Shown here in pieces: positions 22,624 through 28,877 of a stretch of DNA of 64,000 nucleotides (position 1 is its first letter; each line of letters begins with the position of its first letter). The translations under genes and the position numbers were made by a program. The notes beneath the pieces are model-generated. The model saw only the letters and a list, made by a program, of their open reading frames with translations, was not told the origin of the DNA and made no database searches. This stretch comes from an uncultured Bacteroidales bacterium (GTDB taxonomy: Bacteria; Bacteroidota; Bacteroidia; Bacteroidales; FEN-979): assembly GCA_903925275.1 (NCBI GenBank), contig CAIYES010000233.1, forward strand, positions 1,547 to 65,546, written 5' to 3'.

Positions 22624-22695
22624 GGCCCCGTAGTTCAATGGATAGAACGGAAGTTTCCTAAACTTTAAATGCAGGTTCGATTCCTGCCGGGGCTA
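22624..22695 (+). tRNA. tRNA-Arg: tRNA-Arg (anticodon CCT)
   Basis: Manual cloverleaf: acceptor GGCCCCG/CGGGGCT, D arm GTTC-AATGGATA-GAAC, anticodon arm GAAGT-TTCCTAA-ACTTT, T arm GCAGG-TTCGATT-CCTGC, discriminator A. No encoded CCA. Confidence 0.9.
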
Positions 22696-22711
22696 CCTGA
22701 TCATCATACAG

Positions 22712-22778: not shown

Positions 22779-23139
22779 GGATCAAGAGGAAAATCTGGGG
22801 GATTACATTTGAAATTGAAATCTACTTGGTGAAATGAAACTGAAAAATCACTGCAATCTCAGAACCCCATAGGGGTGATATCTTTGTAGCAGGAGAAAAA
22901 TGAACCATTTCCAGAGCCCCATCGGGGCGACATAGTTGTTGAATCTGTAGAAGCTTAGCTATTGAGTTTATCAAACAGCAGGAAGAATAACCTATTTCGC
23001 AGCTACGCTGCTTTGTTATTCACGACCTGTTATTAGTACTACAAAGATTAGGCAGCTATGCTGCCAATTGGGGAGCAAGGGCAAAACCTCCGGATTTTTC
23101 GCTTGAACCTACCTTCCCCCCAGATTTATCTCTTGATCC
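22779..23139 (+). mobile_element. 361-bp non-autonomous TIR element (MITE-like), copy 1, with 8-bp target-site duplication
   Basis: Ends are GGATCAAGAGGAAAATCTGGGGG... and ...CCCCCCAGATTTATCTCTTGATCC (imperfect inverted repeat). It is flanked by CTAATTAC at 22771-22778 and 23140-23147. No ORF. A second copy lies at 43819. Confidence 0.8.
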
Positions 23140-23373: not shown

Positions 23374-24972
23374 ATGCCTACACTCAACTGGATCGGCAAA
23401 GACAAAGTCATCAACCACCATCAGGATGTACCCTTCCGTATACTCGACCATCAGTACGGTTTTACACCGGATGGCAAACAAGAAGCACCTGTTAACAGCG
23501 GTAATCTCATCATCCACGGTGATAATCTCGAAGCGCTTAAAGCCCTGTTGCCTCAGTACGAAGCGAAGGTTAAGTGCATCTATATTGACCCCCCTTATAA
23601 CACAGGTAATGAGGGTTGGGCATATAACGATAACGTTAACGATCCAAAGATTAAAAAGTGGTTGCACAAGGTTGTAGGCAAGGAGGGTGAGGACCTGAGC
23701 AGACATGATAAGTGGTTGTGCATGATGTATCCGAGAATGGTGCTTCTGCACAAGCTGCTTAGTCCTGATGGTGCAATGTTCATCTCAATAGACGATAATG
23801 AACAGCCAAACTTACGCTTATTGCTTGATGAACTATTTGGTGGTAAGAACTTCATTGCTAACGTTATATGGCAGAAGGTGTATTCTCCTAAGAACTCTGC
23901 GAAATACTTTTCTGAGGATCATGACTATATCATGGTTTACTCTAAAGACTTCACAAAGTGGGTGCCTAACATGATTCCACGTTCTGCAATACAAGTAAGC
24001 CGATATAAGAACCCAGATCATGATTCAAGAGGGCCTTGGAAACCTGGTGATCTGTCTGCAAGAAACTACTATGGAGATGGTACATACTCTATAACAACAC
24101 CTTCAGGGAGAACTATTGACGCACCTCCAAAAGGTATGTATTGGCGTGTCTCCTTTAAAAAGTTTCAAGAGATGGATGCTGATGGGCGAATTTGGTGGGG
24201 TGCAGAAGGAAATAATGTTCCTGCCATTAAAAGGTTCTTATCGGAGGTCCAAGATGGTGTGGTGCCTCAAACATTGTGGCGCTATGAGGAGGTTGGGCAT
24301 ACGCAGGATGCCAAAAAGGAGTTGCTTAAGATACTTGATTTCGACTCCTCAGCAGATGTCTTTATCACACCTAAGCCATCATCCTTGGTTGATCGAATCC
24401 TTCAGATAGGATCAAGCAAAGATTCAATCGTTCTTGATTCATTCGCCGGCTCAGGTACAACAGCTCATGCGGTCCTGAAACTAAACAAGAAGGACAAGGG
24501 TAATCGCAAATGTATCCTCGTAGAGATGGAAGACTACGCAGAAACCATCACCGCAGAACGCGTCAAGCGCGTCATCAATGGATACGCTGACGTTGAAGGA
24601 ACCGGTGGCAGCTTTGATTACTACGAGTTAGGGCCTCCGTTGTTTGATGAGAACGGCAACCTGAATGATCAGGTACCATTGAACAGGATCAGAGAGTATG
24701 TATGGTACTCCGAAACCCGGTCAGCATTTAATCCGTTGACGGAGGATCAGCTTCGCAATCCTTACTTCCTGGGGATCAAGGAGGATACCGGGTATTATTT
24801 CTACTACGAACTTCAGCAGGTAACCACCCTCGATTACGATTTTCTTGGTACCATCTGCCTCAAAGCAGAACAGTATGTAATCTATGCCGACAACTGCCTG
24901 CTGTCAAAGACCTTCCTGCAAAACAACAACATCATATTCAAGAAGATACCCCGAGACATCTCACGCTTATGA
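23374..24972 (+). CDS. mod: Type III restriction-modification methyltransferase (Mod), beta-class amino-MTase
   Basis: IYIDPPYNTG (motif IV) precedes DSFAGSGTTAHAV (motif I). Size and a downstream Res-type helicase-nuclease support the call. Confidence 0.85.
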   Translation: MPTLNWIGKDKVINHHQDVPFRILDHQYGFTPDGKQEAPVNSGNLIIHGDNLEALKALLPQYEAKVKCIYIDPPYNTGNEGWAYNDNVNDPKIKKWLHKVVGKEGEDLSRHDKWLCMMYPRMVLLHKLLSPDGAMFISIDDNEQPNLRLLLDELFGGKNFIANVIWQKVYSPKNSAKYFSEDHDYIMVYSKDFTKWVPNMIPRSAIQVSRYKNPDHDSRGPWKPGDLSARNYYGDGTYSITTPSGRTIDAPPKGMYWRVSFKKFQEMDADGRIWWGAEGNNVPAIKRFLSEVQDGVVPQTLWRYEEVGHTQDAKKELLKILDFDSSADVFITPKPSSLVDRILQIGSSKDSIVLDSFAGSGTTAHAVLKLNKKDKGNRKCILVEMEDYAETITAERVKRVINGYADVEGTGGSFDYYELGPPLFDENGNLNDQVPLNRIREYVWYSETRSAFNPLTEDQLRNPYFLGIKEDTGYYFYYELQQVTTLDYDFLGTICLKAEQYVIYADNCLLSKTFLQNNNIIFKKIPRDISRL

Positions 24973-25094
24973 AACCAAATGGAAAATACACTGTGGCAAT
25001 AAACGCATTATATGGGAATTGAACTATTCAAAATTGTCGAATGGATCAAGGTTTAATCATTTTTTTCTATCTTGCATAAACAAAAATAACCGAT

Positions 25095-25307
25095 ATGAAA
25101 ACCGATGAATTAATACTCGAAATAAAAAAACTGCCATTGAATGAAAAGCTTAAGATTATTGAAACTACAGCTCATTCGGTCAGGCTTGACGGAGAAAGAA
25201 AACAAAGGGCTGCCGCTGCAAAATCCCGTGCCGGGAATTATGCAACAGATCAGGAATTAACAGCGTTTACCACTTTAGACGGAGCGGCCTTTTATGAAAC
25301 AAGGTGA
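25095..25307 (+). CDS. Putative antitoxin of the downstream MazF-like toxin
   Basis: 70-aa ORF overlapping the toxin gene by 14 nt. The N-terminal helix (ELILEIKKLPLNEKLKIIE) resembles small addiction-module antitoxins; the family is not firmly recognised. Confidence 0.55.
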   Translation: MKTDELILEIKKLPLNEKLKIIETTAHSVRLDGERKQRAAAAKSRAGNYATDQELTAFTTLDGAAFYETR

Positions 25308-25653
25308 AATATGGCTTATCAGTCTTGATCCGGTGGTAGGCGCAGAGATCAACAAGACAAGAACCGCAATTATTATCAATGATGATGCGTTGGGAATTCT
25401 TCCACTGAAGATAATCATCCCGGTTACAGAATGGAAAACCAGGTATGTCAATGCTCCCTGGTTTGTAAAAATCGACTCTTCTGAAAATACCGGATTAACC
25501 AAAGATTCTGCTGCTGATTGTTTTCAAATCCGCTCGGCATTTGATTCACGGCTGATAAAAAAACTGGGAAAAGTAGACCAGGCGTCATTAGAAAAAATTC
25601 AGTATGCATTATCGAAAGTCCTGTCAATACATTTATTCGAAAAATTCGAATAG
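25294..25653 (+). CDS. mazF: PemK/MazF-family type II toxin (endoribonuclease fold)
   Basis: MKQGEIWLISLDPVVGAEINKTRTAIIINDD...PLKIIIPVT...ADCFQIRS matches the PemK/MazF pattern. Confidence 0.8.
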   Translation: MKQGEIWLISLDPVVGAEINKTRTAIIINDDALGILPLKIIIPVTEWKTRYVNAPWFVKIDSSENTGLTKDSAADCFQIRSAFDSRLIKKLGKVDQASLEKIQYALSKVLSIHLFEKFE

Positions 25654-25712
25654 CTCCCATGATCAATTCTTCGTAAAAGAAATCAAGCGCAAATCCCGGG
25701 CACCCGTAAACA

Positions 25713-28340
25713 ATGGAACTCAAACCCTACCAGACCAAAGTCATCAAAGACCTTGAAAGCTATCTTGGCTACGTTCAACAGTACAAGCTTACCGACGTAG
25801 CCTTTAAGCGCTTTTGGGAAGATCAGGTCGGTCCTTACAACCCGATCACCGGTGAAGGTATGTGACCGTATCAGAACAATGTTCCAAATGCGGCGCATGT
25901 TTGTATTAAGGTACCGACAGCAGGTGGTAAGACCTTCATCGCCTGTAACGCATTGAAGACGATCTTTAACGCATTTGATGCCAGCCATGCAAAAGCAGTG
26001 GTGTGGTTAGTACCCTGGAGCAACCTGTTAGAACAAACGGTTCGGAACCTGAGCAACCCTGATCATCCTTACCGGCAGAAGCTGAACACACTATTTAACC
26101 ATCGTGTGGCCGTTTATGAGAAGAAGGACCTGTTACAGGGATCAAACTTTAGTCCATCAGTGGTTAGTGAACAATTGAGCATCTTCGTGATGAGCTTTGG
26201 CTCGATCAGAGCGACGCGCAAGGAAGACCGTAAGATATATGAGCAAAACGGTCAACTGTCATCGTTTGTGCCCACTTATAATGATAGCTCCGTGGTACTG
26301 GCCAACACCGATGAGTCGGCGCTGATCAATGTAATCCGGAACCTGAACCCGATACTGGTCGTTGACGAAAGTCACAATGCTGAAACAGACCTCAGCGTGG
26401 AGATGCTGAAAGCGCTCAATCCATGCTTCATTCTTGATCTTACAGCCACTCCTAAAGACAACAGCAACATTGTCAGCATGGTTCCGGCTATTGAGTTGAA
26501 AAAACACAGCATGGTAAAGCTGCCTGTGATCGTTTATAACCATAAAGATAAACATGATGTTATCAGTAGCGCTCTTCACTTGCAGCGGAAACTGGAAGCA
26601 TCAGCACTTGCAGAAGAGAAGGTCACAGGCCGCTACATCCGCCCAATCGTCCTGTTTCAGGCACAATCAGCGACCCATGAAGACAACACGACCTTTGAGA
26701 AGCTAAAAGCCGAACTGCTAAAGCTTGGCATCAAGGAAGAGCAGATCAAAATTAAAACGGCAAACAAGAACGAACTTACCGGCATTGATCTGTCGTCAAA
26801 AGACTGTCAGGTAAGGTACATCATCACGATTAATGCACTGAAAGAAGGCTGGGACTGTCCGTTCGCATATATCCTGGCTTCACTTGCTGACAAGTCATCA
26901 GCAGTTGACGTTGAACAGATTCTTGGACGTGTGCTAAGACAGCCCTACGTTATCCGACATGCCGATATATTACTGAATGTTTCGTATGTACTCACGTCAT
27001 CCGCAAAGTTCAATGATACCTTGCAGAACATCGTCAAGAGCTTGTTGAATTCCGGATTTAGCGATAAAGACTACCGGCAGAAGGATGATATGCCCGAAGC
27101 CGACAAACAGCAGGTCACAGCAAAGACACTCGATAATTTCCTGTTTCCGGAAGACAAGCCGGAGGATGAAGGTATTGATGCCGGGAAGGTCAACTATAGT
27201 CCTGATGGTACAGATGCACCGGCAGCAACTACGGTTATCAACACCATCGCCGGTCTTGCCGAACAACAGAACCGTGAACTGGAAGAGCAGATCAACAAAC
27301 AACCTGATGTTATTGACGACAACTATTTTGCAGAGATGGGAACTAAAGTAAAGCGTTATCGAATCCGTGAAGCCTTGTTGGATCAAGTCAAGAGTATCAC
27401 CATTCCACGGTTCTACATTGATGTACCACACAGCGATCTCTTTGAAACCAGTTCAGGACTTGTCCCATTAGATGACACCATTCTGCTTACTGGATTCGCC
27501 CTGGAGAAGTGCGACAAGAATATCGCCTTTGATGATGTCTCGTCTGAACTTTACAAGGTTGACTTACAGGAAACACGGAAGAATGAGTACTCGCCCTCGT
27601 TTACCAAGATCGAAGACCGGATGCTTAAAGAGCCGTTAGTCGATTACATTCTCGCCAAACCAAAGGAGAGCCAGCTCAAAGACCTCGCTGATATAGTGAT
27701 CAAGCTCATAGGAGACATGTACCCAATTCCTGACAGCTCCATAAAACGCTATGTTGAATCAGTTTTTAACGACTTCACGCAAGAGCAGATCGCTGATTTT
27801 CTCGCTCGTAAATACACTTACGTCGACAAGATCAAACATAAGATCAAGGTACTTGCAGATGCATACGCCGAAGAACAATTCAATAAGTACATTAAGGTGG
27901 GGAAGATCAAGGTTCAGCAAGTGTGGAAGTTTCCTGAATCAATCAGTCCTGGCAACCTCGGCCCATCTATCGGACAATCGCTATATGAGCGTGAAGGGTC
28001 CATGAATGGCTTTGAAGAGCGTGTGATACTTGAATTGTCAAGCCTCTCTAACATAAACTTCTGGCACCGGAATATTGAGCGCAGGGGCTTTGCTATCAAC
28101 GGTTTTAAGTCAAACCATTATCCTGACTTCATTCTCTATACAAAGACCGGTAACGTAATTCTACTGGAAACAAAAGGTGATTATCTGGATGGAACTGACA
28201 GTTCTGCTAAGTGTCGTCTCGGGAACCAGTGGCAGCAGCTCTCCGGTTCAGGATTCAGTTACTTTATGGTGTTTGATGCCAAACCCATTACCGATTCTTA
28301 TACGATCACGCAGGCAAAGGATATGATCAGGATGCTTTAA
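25713..28340 (+). pseudogene. res: Type III restriction enzyme Res subunit (SF2 helicase + PD-(D/E)xK nuclease) interrupted by an in-frame TGA at 25863-25865
   Basis: The same frame gives MELKPYQ...GEGM-stop-PYQNNVPNAAHVCIKVPTAGGKTF (Walker A), then VVDESHN (motif II) and a C-terminal YPDFILY...LLETKG nuclease motif. The track ORF starts at TTG 25953, downstream of motif I. Confidence 0.75.
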
Positions 28341-28877
28341 CCCGGTTTTTCTCCACAAAAAACCCACTTACTTACCTGTATACCCTATAGGTGTAAAGTA
28401 AGTGAGCAGGTTTCTTCTTAATCGAGACTACCAGCATACATTGCCCCTAAAACGGGGCCACCTCCAATTCGACATTGTAAACGTCATTCTCAAGCCTTGG
28501 CACGTCCACCGCTGCAAGTGATTGTGTCATTTAATGTTGTGATTTGTTTGAGCCAATTGCCTTTGGGATCAAAACCCTGATAGATCCAAAGTCAAAAAGA
28601 GATGTCTCAGGGTATTGGTATAGCAAGACAAACAGTACAGAATGCGGAATATGGTGGGAATATAAACTTACTTACCCTCTTCAAAATAATCGATGTTCAT
28701 GACATGGCATTAGAGGAATTTTTCAGAGAAATGGAATAACATCATGATTACGGGTTTCCTCAATGGTTATCAGCCTGAAAAACAATTATATAGGTCTTTG
28801 CCTGTAGAATTAAATACGTATTAACCTGCAATGACTATAGTTGACATGATCAAGCGATCTTCAACAGGTAAGATCAG

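What the first reader, a model, noticed from the sequence alone, without database searches (positions are those of the whole stretch)
24973..25712. MazF-type toxin-antitoxin cassette wedged between mod and res of a Type III R-M system
Type III mod and res are classically adjacent or overlapping and co-transcribed. Here a 740-nt gap holds a co-oriented two-gene cassette. A 70-aa ORF (25095-25307) overlaps by 14 nt a 119-aa PemK/MazF-fold toxin (GEIWLISLDPVVGAEINKTRTAIII...). This stacks two addiction/defence modules (R-M and TA) in what looks like one transcription unit, and the downstream res carries a nonsense codon. The TA could be a later insertion that uncoupled res. It could instead stabilise the locus once restriction was lost, or be a deliberate mod-TA-res defence architecture. 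The small ORF does not look like a classical AbrB-type MazE.
Basis: partly seen in the sequence, partly recalled or inferred. Interest (0 to 1): 0.6.

Follow-up and report, generated by a model that had tools for sequence, protein, structure and literature searches.

The report
MazF toxin-antitoxin cassette inside Type III R-M
A self-contained MazF-type toxin-antitoxin gene pair sits in the gap between the two genes of a Type III restriction-modification system, a gap that in about a quarter of related systems holds other toxin or defence genes, so this is a fresh example of a known habit of defence genes nesting inside each other.

Summary
A 70-aa ORF (25095-25307) overlaps a 119-aa PemK/MazF toxin (25294-25653) by 14 nt. 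res (25713-28340) has one in-frame TGA at codon 51, upstream of its Walker A motif.

The 70-aa ORF is the cognate partner. A homologue lies directly upstream of the toxin in 79 of 80 related loci. It matches no Pfam, NCBIfam or PDB entry and is predicted to be all-helical, so it is not an AbrB-type MazE. The cassette carries its own Bacteroidota -7-like promoter box.

mod-TA-res is not a general architecture. Toxin homologues sit among unrelated housekeeping genes, and most related mod-res pairs are 1-15 nt apart. However, 20 of 72 related loci carry other co-oriented cargo at this junction (RhuM, Fic/SoFic, HEC-01, zeta, Uma2 and others). The TA appears to have replaced an older RhuM gene.

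Conspecific metagenome contigs show the same mod-TA-res with res intact, or with res broken at a different codon (302). The TA therefore came before res loss and did not cause it. The window's own toxin and antitoxin carry derived changes at conserved sites.

Verdict: a new member of the known class of genes embedded in defence systems. Interest is moderate to low.

The parts
22624..22697 (+). tRNA-Arg(CCT). The R-M/TA island lies just downstream of it.
   Evidence: ARAGORN; Rfam tRNA 70 bits
23374..24972 (+). Type III mod (N6/N4 DNA methyltransferase), apparently intact with DPPY and FxGxG motifs. Its central target-recognition region (about 23800-24418) cannot be aligned with conspecific alleles.
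   Evidence: PF01555 4e-40; PADLOC MTase_III 5.8e-221; blastn gaps over the TRD
24973..25067 (.). Left spacer, probably the decayed 5' remnant of an older RhuM cargo gene. It includes an imperfect inverted repeat at about 25020-25048.
   Evidence: It is collinear at nucleotide level with L187 and L180. In L180 the homologous stretch is still an 81-aa RhuM N-terminal fragment (tblastn E 1e-6). No protein-level signal is left in the window itself.
25068..25075 (+). TATCTTGC, a Bacteroidota -7-like promoter box of the TA cassette, 27 nt before the antitoxin ATG. It also marks the left edge of the conserved cassette.
   Evidence: The motif TA..TT[TG][CG] falls in the -30..-21 bin in 25 of 70 homologous cassettes, against 1-6 in bins further upstream (-190 to -50). 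Homology with cassettes in other contexts (L183, L184) starts exactly at 25068.
25095..25307 (+). 70-aa antitoxin of an uncharacterised all-helical family. The window copy has R38 and R45 where relatives have M and L.
   Evidence: A homologue lies directly upstream of the toxin in 79 of 80 loci. No Pfam, NCBIfam or PDB match. AF2 model pLDDT 78 with helices at 3-11, 15-51 and 57-63. Substitutions.
25294..25653 (+). 119-aa PemK/MazF-family toxin (predicted endoribonuclease). R23 and T45 are retained. The window copy has derived changes at conserved sites: P24T, P62S, V82A and S83F.
   Evidence: PF02452 1.2e-21. Best solved relative is M. tuberculosis MazF9, 5hjz, E 3.4e-12. Column conservation and dN/dS 0.5-0.7.
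25635..25651 (.). Perfect palindrome ATTCGAA-AAA-TTCGAAT over the last toxin codons. It marks the right edge of the conserved cassette and is 82% complementary to 25021-25042.
   Evidence: the repeat finder I1; homology with L183 ends at 25655; retained in the L007 remnant
25654..25712 (.). Right spacer of 59 nt between the toxin stop and the res ATG. No terminator-like hairpin. It may be a RhuM 3' remnant, but the evidence is weak.
   Evidence: No + strand terminator between mod and res. Weak resemblance of one frame to RhuM C-termini.
25713..28340 (+). Type III res, a pseudogene in this genome. A single in-frame TGA at 25863-25865 (codon 51) lies upstream of helicase motif I.
   Evidence: Translation; PF04851 and PADLOC REase_III; relatives have a sense codon at this position and an 875-aa open frame

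Best explanation
This is an autonomous type II toxin-antitoxin cassette of about 590 bp (25068-25655). It comprises its own Bacteroidota-type promoter, a 70-aa all-helical antitoxin of an undescribed family, and a MazF/PemK endoribonuclease toxin translationally coupled to it by a 14-nt overlap.

The cassette lies in the intergenic slot between mod and res of a Type III R-M island next to tRNA-Arg. In this R-M family that slot is a recurrent, high-turnover landing place for co-oriented toxin and defence cargo. Here the TA seems to have replaced most of an earlier RhuM gene.

By analogy with MazE-MazF, the conserved acidic/aromatic C-terminal tail of the antitoxin (ELTAFTxLDxExFYExR) probably occupies the toxin's RNA groove. 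If the labile antitoxin is not replenished, free toxin would cleave RNA and arrest growth. That would give addiction of the island and possibly an abortive-infection back-up.

The TA is not needed for R-M function and did not cause the loss of res. The res nonsense codon is a later event specific to this lineage, and it leaves Mod as a solitary methyltransferase. In this genome the TA itself shows relaxed constraint.

Shown: gene identities, co-conservation of the pair, the promoter-like box, the cargo diversity at the slot, and the order of events. Inferred: toxicity, neutralisation, transcription and any defence role.
For: - Family identities.
- Pair co-conservation with the same overlap in 79 of 80 loci.
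- The neighbours of those cassettes are heterogeneous housekeeping genes, so the unit is autonomous.
- A -7-like box peaks 21-30 nt before the ATG across the family and is present in the window.
- The cassette edges at 25068 and 25655 are shared with copies in other contexts.
- 50 of 72 related loci have mod and res no more than 40 nt apart. 20 of 72 have inserts over 150 nt carrying RhuM, Fic/SoFic, a four-helix-bundle protein, HEC-01 (AAA_21+DUF4276), Uma2, zeta, ORF6N, Bro-N, PDDEXK_3 or an IS.
- The Res tree needs at least 14 gains or losses of cargo.
- A decayed copy of the same TA sits in L007 with res intact.
- L180-182 have mod, a RhuM remnant, an orphan antitoxin, PDC-M29 and then res.
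- Among conspecific contigs with the TA, res is intact (875 aa) in one, broken at codon 302 in three, and open to the contig end in two.
- Embedding of defence genes within Type I R-M, BREX, DISARM and Hma, 96.7% co-oriented, is published (bioRxiv 10.1101/2024.01.29.577857). RhuM, DOC and HEPN toxins in R-M operons are also published (PMC3710099).
Against: - There are no expression or toxicity data. Co-transcription with mod and res is neither shown nor excluded. There is no terminator-like hairpin between them, but that scan is crude.
- The antitoxin has no recognisable DNA-binding fold, so autoregulation is conjecture.
- The closer subclade of this TA (66-97% antitoxin identity) is found with this mod in several diverged lineages: the window, L187, L180-182, L183 and L007. 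That is more linkage than a purely random hitch-hiker would show.
- The window's toxin has changes at conserved sites, P24T next to the catalytic Arg and S83F. It may therefore no longer be toxic.
Confidence: 0.7

Rival explanations
1. Layered defence or 'guardian'. The TA is a functional second line coupled to the R-M system. It would be expressed with the R-M system and release MazF when a phage blocks restriction or shuts off host transcription, much as PrrC is embedded in EcoprrI.
For: - Cargo at the mod-res slot is almost entirely toxin or defence-candidate genes and is co-oriented in 19 of 20 loci.
- This TA subclade stays linked to this mod across diverged lineages.
- The guardian concept and guilt-by-embedding are established (PMC12707154; 10.1101/2024.01.29.577857).
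- No terminator-like site lies between mod, the TA and res.
Against: - 79 of 80 homologous cassettes are not next to any R-M gene, unlike PrrC.
- The TA decays where the R-M is intact (L007, L180-182). The R-M decays or is deleted where the TA is intact (window, L174/175, L183). There is no mutual dependence.
- The cassette has its own promoter.
- MazF matches no PADLOC model.
Confidence: 0.2
2. The TA insertion disrupted the coupling of mod and res expression, making res dispensable. The nonsense codon is then a downstream consequence of the insertion.
For: - Relatives have mod and res 1-15 nt apart, compatible with coupled expression.
- Three independent res losses are seen among the few TA-bearing lineages: codon 51, codon 302 and the deletion in L183. 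Few broken res genes are seen among 72 species-representative loci.
Against: - An intact 875-aa res coexists with the TA.
- 20 of 72 loci tolerate inserts of 0.2-1.9 kb with res open.
- res between the window and TA-bearing conspecific contigs is under strong purifying selection (dN/dS 0.03-0.04).
- The comparison is biased: deep within-species sampling is being set against one genome per species.
- Loss of res with retention of mod is common in Type III systems without any insertion (PMC1976455).
Confidence: 0.06
3. Artefact. The arrangement or the stop codon is an assembly, binning or sequencing error in a fragmented MAG.
For: The genome is a MAG of 574 contigs with 3.6% contamination. Reads could not be inspected.
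Against: The same gene order and flanks occur on nine independent contigs from several studies. A second, different nonsense codon in res is seen in three of them. Only the single-base TGA remains unverified.
Confidence: 0.04

Closest known systems
MazEF / PemIK (Kis-Kid) type II toxin-antitoxin systems; the closest solved toxin is M. tuberculosis MazF9 (5hjz, 6kyt)
   Same: The toxin matches PF02452 end to end and keeps the Arg and Thr positions. The antitoxin gene lies upstream and overlaps the toxin start. The two-gene unit is small.
   Different: The antitoxin is not an AbrB/SpoVT-type or RHH-type MazE. It has no Pfam, NCBIfam or PDB relative and is predicted to be all-helical with a disordered conserved tail. 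Identity to solved MazF toxins is low.
Defence genes embedded within multi-gene defence systems ('guilt-by-embedding', Payne et al., bioRxiv 10.1101/2024.01.29.577857), and toxins in R-M operons (Anantharaman et al. 2013, PMC3710099)
   Same: The cargo is co-oriented and nested between the genes of an R-M system. Sister loci carry cargo matching PADLOC embedded-candidate families: PDC-S05 (RhuM), SoFic, HEC-01 and PDC-M29.
   Different: Those surveys covered Hma, BREX, DISARM and Type I R-M, not the mod-res junction of Type III systems. A MazF TA is not among their models.
PrrC anticodon nuclease embedded in the Type Ic EcoprrI locus (an R-M guardian)
   Same: An RNA-cleaving toxin gene sits between R-M genes (PMC12707154).
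   Different: PrrC is almost exclusively R-M-embedded and is held inactive by the R-M enzyme itself. This MazF has its own protein antitoxin and promoter, and its homologues mostly live outside R-M loci.
Type III systems with an inactivated res and a retained mod (Haemophilus/Neisseria phasevarions, PMC1976455)
   Same: mod is intact and res is inactivated by independent point mutations in different strains. The mod target-recognition region is hypervariable.
   Different: There is no simple-sequence repeat tract in mod that would make it phase-variable. The organism is an environmental Bacteroidota MAG.

Membership tests
PemK/MazF toxin (PF02452) | Full-length match to the family profile above the curated cut-off | tested here: met
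   77.4 bits against a 23.1 cut-off, profile positions 1-109 of 109. Own-genome scan 76.8 bits.
PemK/MazF toxin (PF02452) | Conserved catalytic Arg and Thr positions (R25/T48 in B. subtilis MazF, from established knowledge) | tested here: met
   R23 is R in 78 of 80 homologues and T45 is T in 80 of 80. Both align with MazF9. The neighbouring P24, which is P in 79 of 80, is T in the window.
PemK/MazF toxin (PF02452) | Endoribonuclease activity and growth arrest on expression | not testable with these tools
   Needs expression in a laboratory strain.
Type II TA module | A small partner gene directly upstream, co-conserved with the toxin | tested here: met
   A homologue of the 70-aa ORF lies upstream in 79 of 80 loci, ending 11 nt into the toxin. 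There is only one copy of the antitoxin family in the genome.
MazE antitoxin (AbrB/SpoVT-like swapped hairpin) or RHH/Phd antitoxins | Match to the family profile, or an N-terminal beta-strand DNA-binding fold | tested here: not met
   No Pfam or NCBIfam hit. 22 members scanned at E<5 gave only scattered noise. PDB profile search best E 1. The AF2 model is all helices. Foldseek found nothing with E<1.
Type III restriction-modification system | Mod methyltransferase plus a Res helicase-nuclease on the same strand | tested here: met
   PADLOC MTase_III 5.8e-221 and REase_III 3.8e-62. PF01555 and PF04851.
Type III restriction-modification system | Intact res able to hydrolyse ATP and cleave DNA | tested here: not met
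   An in-frame TGA at codon 51 precedes the Walker A motif. Relatives are open for 875 aa. Not verified against reads.
Embedded defence cargo (guilt-by-embedding) | Nested between genes of one defence system, on the same strand, and not an MGE or housekeeping gene | tested here: met
   Sister loci carry PDC-S05, SoFic, HEC-01 and PDC-M29 at the same junction.
Embedded defence cargo (guilt-by-embedding) | Demonstrated protection against phage | not testable with these tools
   Needs plaque assays.
PrrC-like R-M guardian | Found almost exclusively embedded in R-M loci | tested here: not met
   None of 80 homologous cassettes is next to this mod or res. The immediate neighbours are housekeeping genes.
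Phasevarion (phase-variable Type III mod) | A simple-sequence repeat tract in mod | tested here: not met
   Only a weak 6-nt x 3.3 repeat was found.

The most novel reading that the evidence does not exclude
The mod-res junction of Type III R-M systems is a dedicated, co-transcribed 'cargo slot', comparable to the embedding sites described for Type I R-M, BREX and Hma. Second-line toxins would be serially swapped in that slot. The MazF module with its undescribed helical antitoxin would then be a true anti-phage abortive-infection module that backs up restriction, or outlives it.
Probability: 0.2. Interest if true: 0.6.

Novelty: new member of a known kind. Interest (0 to 1): 0.35.

Why it matters
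This adds Type III mod-res junctions to the places where defence or toxin genes nest inside other defence systems. The published embedding survey did not cover them.

It flags a widespread Bacteroidota MazF clade whose antitoxin belongs to no described family. That makes it a cheap candidate for a phage-defence test.

The set of related loci gives an unusually clear time series of cargo turnover: first RhuM, then the TA, then an AAA_15 pair. The R-M and TA parts decay independently of each other. That argues against reading every such stack as a designed unit.

Tried and rejected
Neither the TGA nor co-transcription could be checked.
- Sigma-70 promoter scan: fewer hits than in shuffles, and not relevant to Bacteroidota. 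The exact TAnnTTTG motif is at chance level in the window and absent from the + strand of the gap. Only the family-wide positional analysis was informative.
- Antitoxin identity: Pfam, NCBIfam, PADLOC, a PDB profile search and Foldseek on the AF2 model all gave nothing.
- Target-site duplication: an 'ATGGAA' repeat at both ends of the 740-nt gap is too short to count and is not shared with L007. I rejected it.
- The 22-nt inverted repeat bracketing the cassette looked like a TIR. Its left arm lies in the RhuM-remnant sequence, so I do not claim transposition.
- Selenocysteine or read-through at the TGA: relatives have an ordinary sense codon there, and nothing supports recoding.
- Mobile-element carriage: no phage hit, and only plasmid relatives at 35-50% identity.
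- A link between the TA and res loss: the numbers are too small and the sampling too biased to test.

Full report
**1. Observation**

ORF listing and sequence confirm the layout:
- mod at 23374-24972
- a 740-nt gap at 24973-25712
- a 70-aa ORF at 25095-25307
- a 119-aa ORF at 25294-25653, overlapping the 70-aa ORF by 14 nt
- res starting at 25713

Translating 25713-28340 gives one frame of 875 codons interrupted once, by TGA at 25863-25865, which is codon 51. The next start codon (TTG 25953) lies after the GKT Walker A motif, so any re-initiated product would lack helicase motif I.

Family assignments are clear. Mod matches PF01555 (4e-40) and PADLOC MTase_III (5.8e-221). The 119-aa protein matches PF02452 PemK_toxin (1.2e-21, full length). 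Res matches PF04851 and PADLOC REase_III (3.8e-62). The 70-aa protein matches nothing. The only RNA gene nearby is tRNA-Arg(CCT) at 22624-22697.

**2. The pair is a real, autonomous TA cassette**

A scan of one genome per species found 153 relatives of the toxin, at 52-64% identity among the 80 loci kept, mostly in Bacteroidota. In 79 of the 80 loci kept, a homologue of the 70-aa ORF lies immediately upstream and ends 11 nt into the toxin gene, the same geometry as in the window. None of these loci has this mod or res nearby.

The 148 immediate neighbours hit 144 different Pfam families. These are mostly housekeeping or miscellaneous functions (glycosyltransferases, AIR carboxylase, TatD and others). 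No family matches more than four neighbours, and no R-M gene family is among the 25 most frequent.

Upstream of the antitoxin ATG, the Bacteroidota -7-like motif TA..TT[TG][CG] piles up at -30 to -21. It occurs there in 25 of 70 loci, against 1-6 in bins further upstream (-190 to -50). The window has TATCTTGC at -27, coordinates 25068-25075. Copies of the closer subclade that lie in other contexts (L183, L184) are homologous to the window exactly from 25068 to 25655. The unit is therefore promoter, antitoxin and toxin.

The closest solved toxin is M. tuberculosis MazF9 (E 3.4e-12). The Arg and Thr positions are retained.

The antitoxin family has a conserved N-terminal helix and a nearly invariant tail, ELTAFTxLDxExFYExR. 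It has no Pfam or PDB relative, even with a profile. AlphaFold2 on a 22-sequence alignment gives three helices and a disordered tail (pLDDT 78), with no Foldseek match.

**3. The mod-res junction is a cargo slot**

Eighty loci with relatives of Mod were fetched. In 72 of them both genes are visible. In 50 of those the two genes are no more than 40 nt apart, commonly 1-15 nt. In 20 there is an insert of 0.2-1.9 kb (L004 and L074 were artefacts of my ORF extension and are not counted as inserts).

The inserts carry:
- RhuM (PF13310; PADLOC PDC-S05), in six loci
- Fic/SoFic, in three loci
- 23S-rRNA-IVP four-helix-bundle proteins
- AAA_21+DUF4276 (PADLOC HEC-01)
- Uma2
- a zeta-toxin-like kinase
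- ORF6N
- Bro-N
- PDDEXK_3
- two unknown small pairs
- one IS, the only cargo on the opposite strand

On a Res tree the occupied or empty state needs at least 14 changes, and at least 10 are forced by well-supported branches. These are therefore many independent events.

This matches what has been published for other systems. Toxins such as RhuM, DOC and HEPN sit in R-M operons (PMC3710099). [quoted passage not shown] That survey did not include Type III systems.

**4. History of this locus**

On the Res tree, the window, a conspecific contig (L174), L003 and L007 form a clade with 100% support.
- L003, G019 and G023 (same genus) have mod and res 1-14 nt apart and no TA.
- L007 has res intact and a deleted remnant of the very same cassette: the antitoxin start and C-terminus, the first toxin codons and the terminal palindrome. 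It also has a PDDEXK_3-like fragment.
- L187 has mod (84% identity), then antitoxin, then toxin.
- L180-182 have, in order: mod, an 81-aa N-terminal remnant of RhuM (tblastn E 1e-6), an orphan antitoxin with the toxin gone, an AAA_15 protein with a 201-aa partner (PADLOC PDC-M29A/B), and res (92% identity at the N-terminus).

The window's left spacer (24973-25067) is collinear at nucleotide level with these RhuM remnants. The TA therefore most likely landed in, and replaced, a RhuM gene that already occupied the slot. A RhuM origin for the right spacer is only weakly suggested.

L183 keeps the TA next to a 50-codon stub of mod and a tRNA-like sequence, with the R-M genes gone. L184 and L185 have the TA with no mod within 885 nt.

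**5. res loss is later and independent**

The antitoxin allele 97% identical to the window's occurs on nine metagenome contigs, all with the order mod-antitoxin-toxin-res. The two contigs long enough to reach them (L174, L175) also share the downstream Por_Secre_tail and CarboxypepD_reg genes. Flanks are 98-100% identical to the window, which indicates the same species.

The state of res in these contigs is as follows:
- intact at 875 aa in one contig
- open to the contig end in two contigs (368 and 327 codons)
- broken by a nonsense codon at position 302, with no indels, in three contigs from different samples

None of them has the window's stop at codon 51. The TA-bearing state with working res therefore exists, and res was knocked out at least twice afterwards. 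Retention of mod with an inactivated res is well known in Type III systems (PMC1976455). Unlike phasevarions, this mod has no repeat tract.

**6. State of the window's own TA**

Compared with the conspecific contigs, the window's toxin has 9-10 amino-acid changes and only 4-5 synonymous ones (dN/dS 0.5-0.7). The corresponding values are 0.03-0.04 for res and about 0.1 for mod. Four of the changes are derived at conserved columns:
- P24T: P in 79 of 80 homologues, adjacent to the catalytic Arg
- P62S
- V82A
- S83F

The antitoxin has M38R and L45R, and L45 is nearly invariant in the family. No second copy of the antitoxin family exists in the genome.

This suggests relaxed constraint, that is, an attenuated toxin followed by a drifting antitoxin. 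The counts are small and the sequence is a MAG consensus.

**7. Mechanism and verdict**

Most likely (about 0.7), this is a self-promoted, mobile MazF-family addiction module occupying a permissive, frequently re-used slot in a Type III R-M island. It may stabilise the island and may act as an abortive-infection back-up, but it is neither required for nor responsible for the state of res.

A true coupled 'guardian' role (about 0.2) is not excluded. In its favour are the toxin or defence nature and co-orientation of all slot cargo, and the repeated linkage of this TA subclade with this mod. Against it are the independence of decay in both directions and the fact that the wider TA family lives outside R-M loci.

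No phage record carries the toxin, and plasmid relatives are distant.

Novelty: a new member of a known kind, namely embedded defence or toxin cargo. There are two modest extras. The embedding site is a Type III mod-res junction, and the MazF antitoxin family is undescribed.

The scan's earlier notes on the res TGA and on a repeat element after the tRNA agree with what I saw.

Noticed in passing
window 23800-24418 and 25713-27800, compared with L174-L177: Between conspecific strains (flanks 0-2% divergent), the mod target-recognition region cannot be aligned and the 5' two-thirds of res is 5-21% divergent at nucleotide level, yet under strong purifying selection (dN/dS 0.03). The TA between them is only 1-5% divergent. 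This points to allelic exchange of R-M segments around a conserved cassette.
   Followed up: partly
L180:1234-3504 (also L181, L182): A 'cargo graveyard' lies between mod and res. It holds a RhuM N-terminal remnant, an orphan antitoxin with an altered C-terminus and no toxin, then an AAA_15 ATPase with a 201-aa partner (PADLOC PDC-M29A/B).
   Followed up: partly
L183:227-1254: A 50-codon stub of mod is fused to the spacer in front of an intact antitoxin-toxin pair, followed by a tRNA-like sequence. The R-M genes were deleted while the TA survived.
   Followed up: partly
L049:8058-9329: Two identical copies of a 191-aa Uma2-family gene, 696 nt apart, lie in the mod-res slot of a Desulfobacterales MAG. 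This could be a tandem duplication or an assembly repeat.
   Followed up: no
L007:7770-8056: Besides the TA remnant, the slot holds a fragment resembling the N-terminus of a GxxExxY/PDDEXK_3 protein with 'TKDTK/HEGHE'-like leader repeats. An intact member of that family is the cargo in L050.
   Followed up: no
window 25635-25651: A perfect palindrome ATTCGAA-AAA-TTCGAAT encodes the toxin's C-terminal extension (FEKFE), which is absent from 79 of the 80 homologues from other species. It is kept even in the deleted L007 remnant. It could be an operator, an RNA hairpin or a recombination site.
   Followed up: partly
window 28602-28739: A 45-aa ORF just after res looks like the C-terminal piece of an XRE-type helix-turn-helix protein. 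It may be another gene remnant at the edge of the island.
   Followed up: no
It carries a TATCTTTG box at 22879. I did not re-examine the element.
   Followed up: no
G000 contigs C68, C202, C326, C341: The genome has four further PemK/MazF-family hits, two of them stronger than the window's. None is paired with the 70-aa antitoxin family, which has a single copy.
   Followed up: partly
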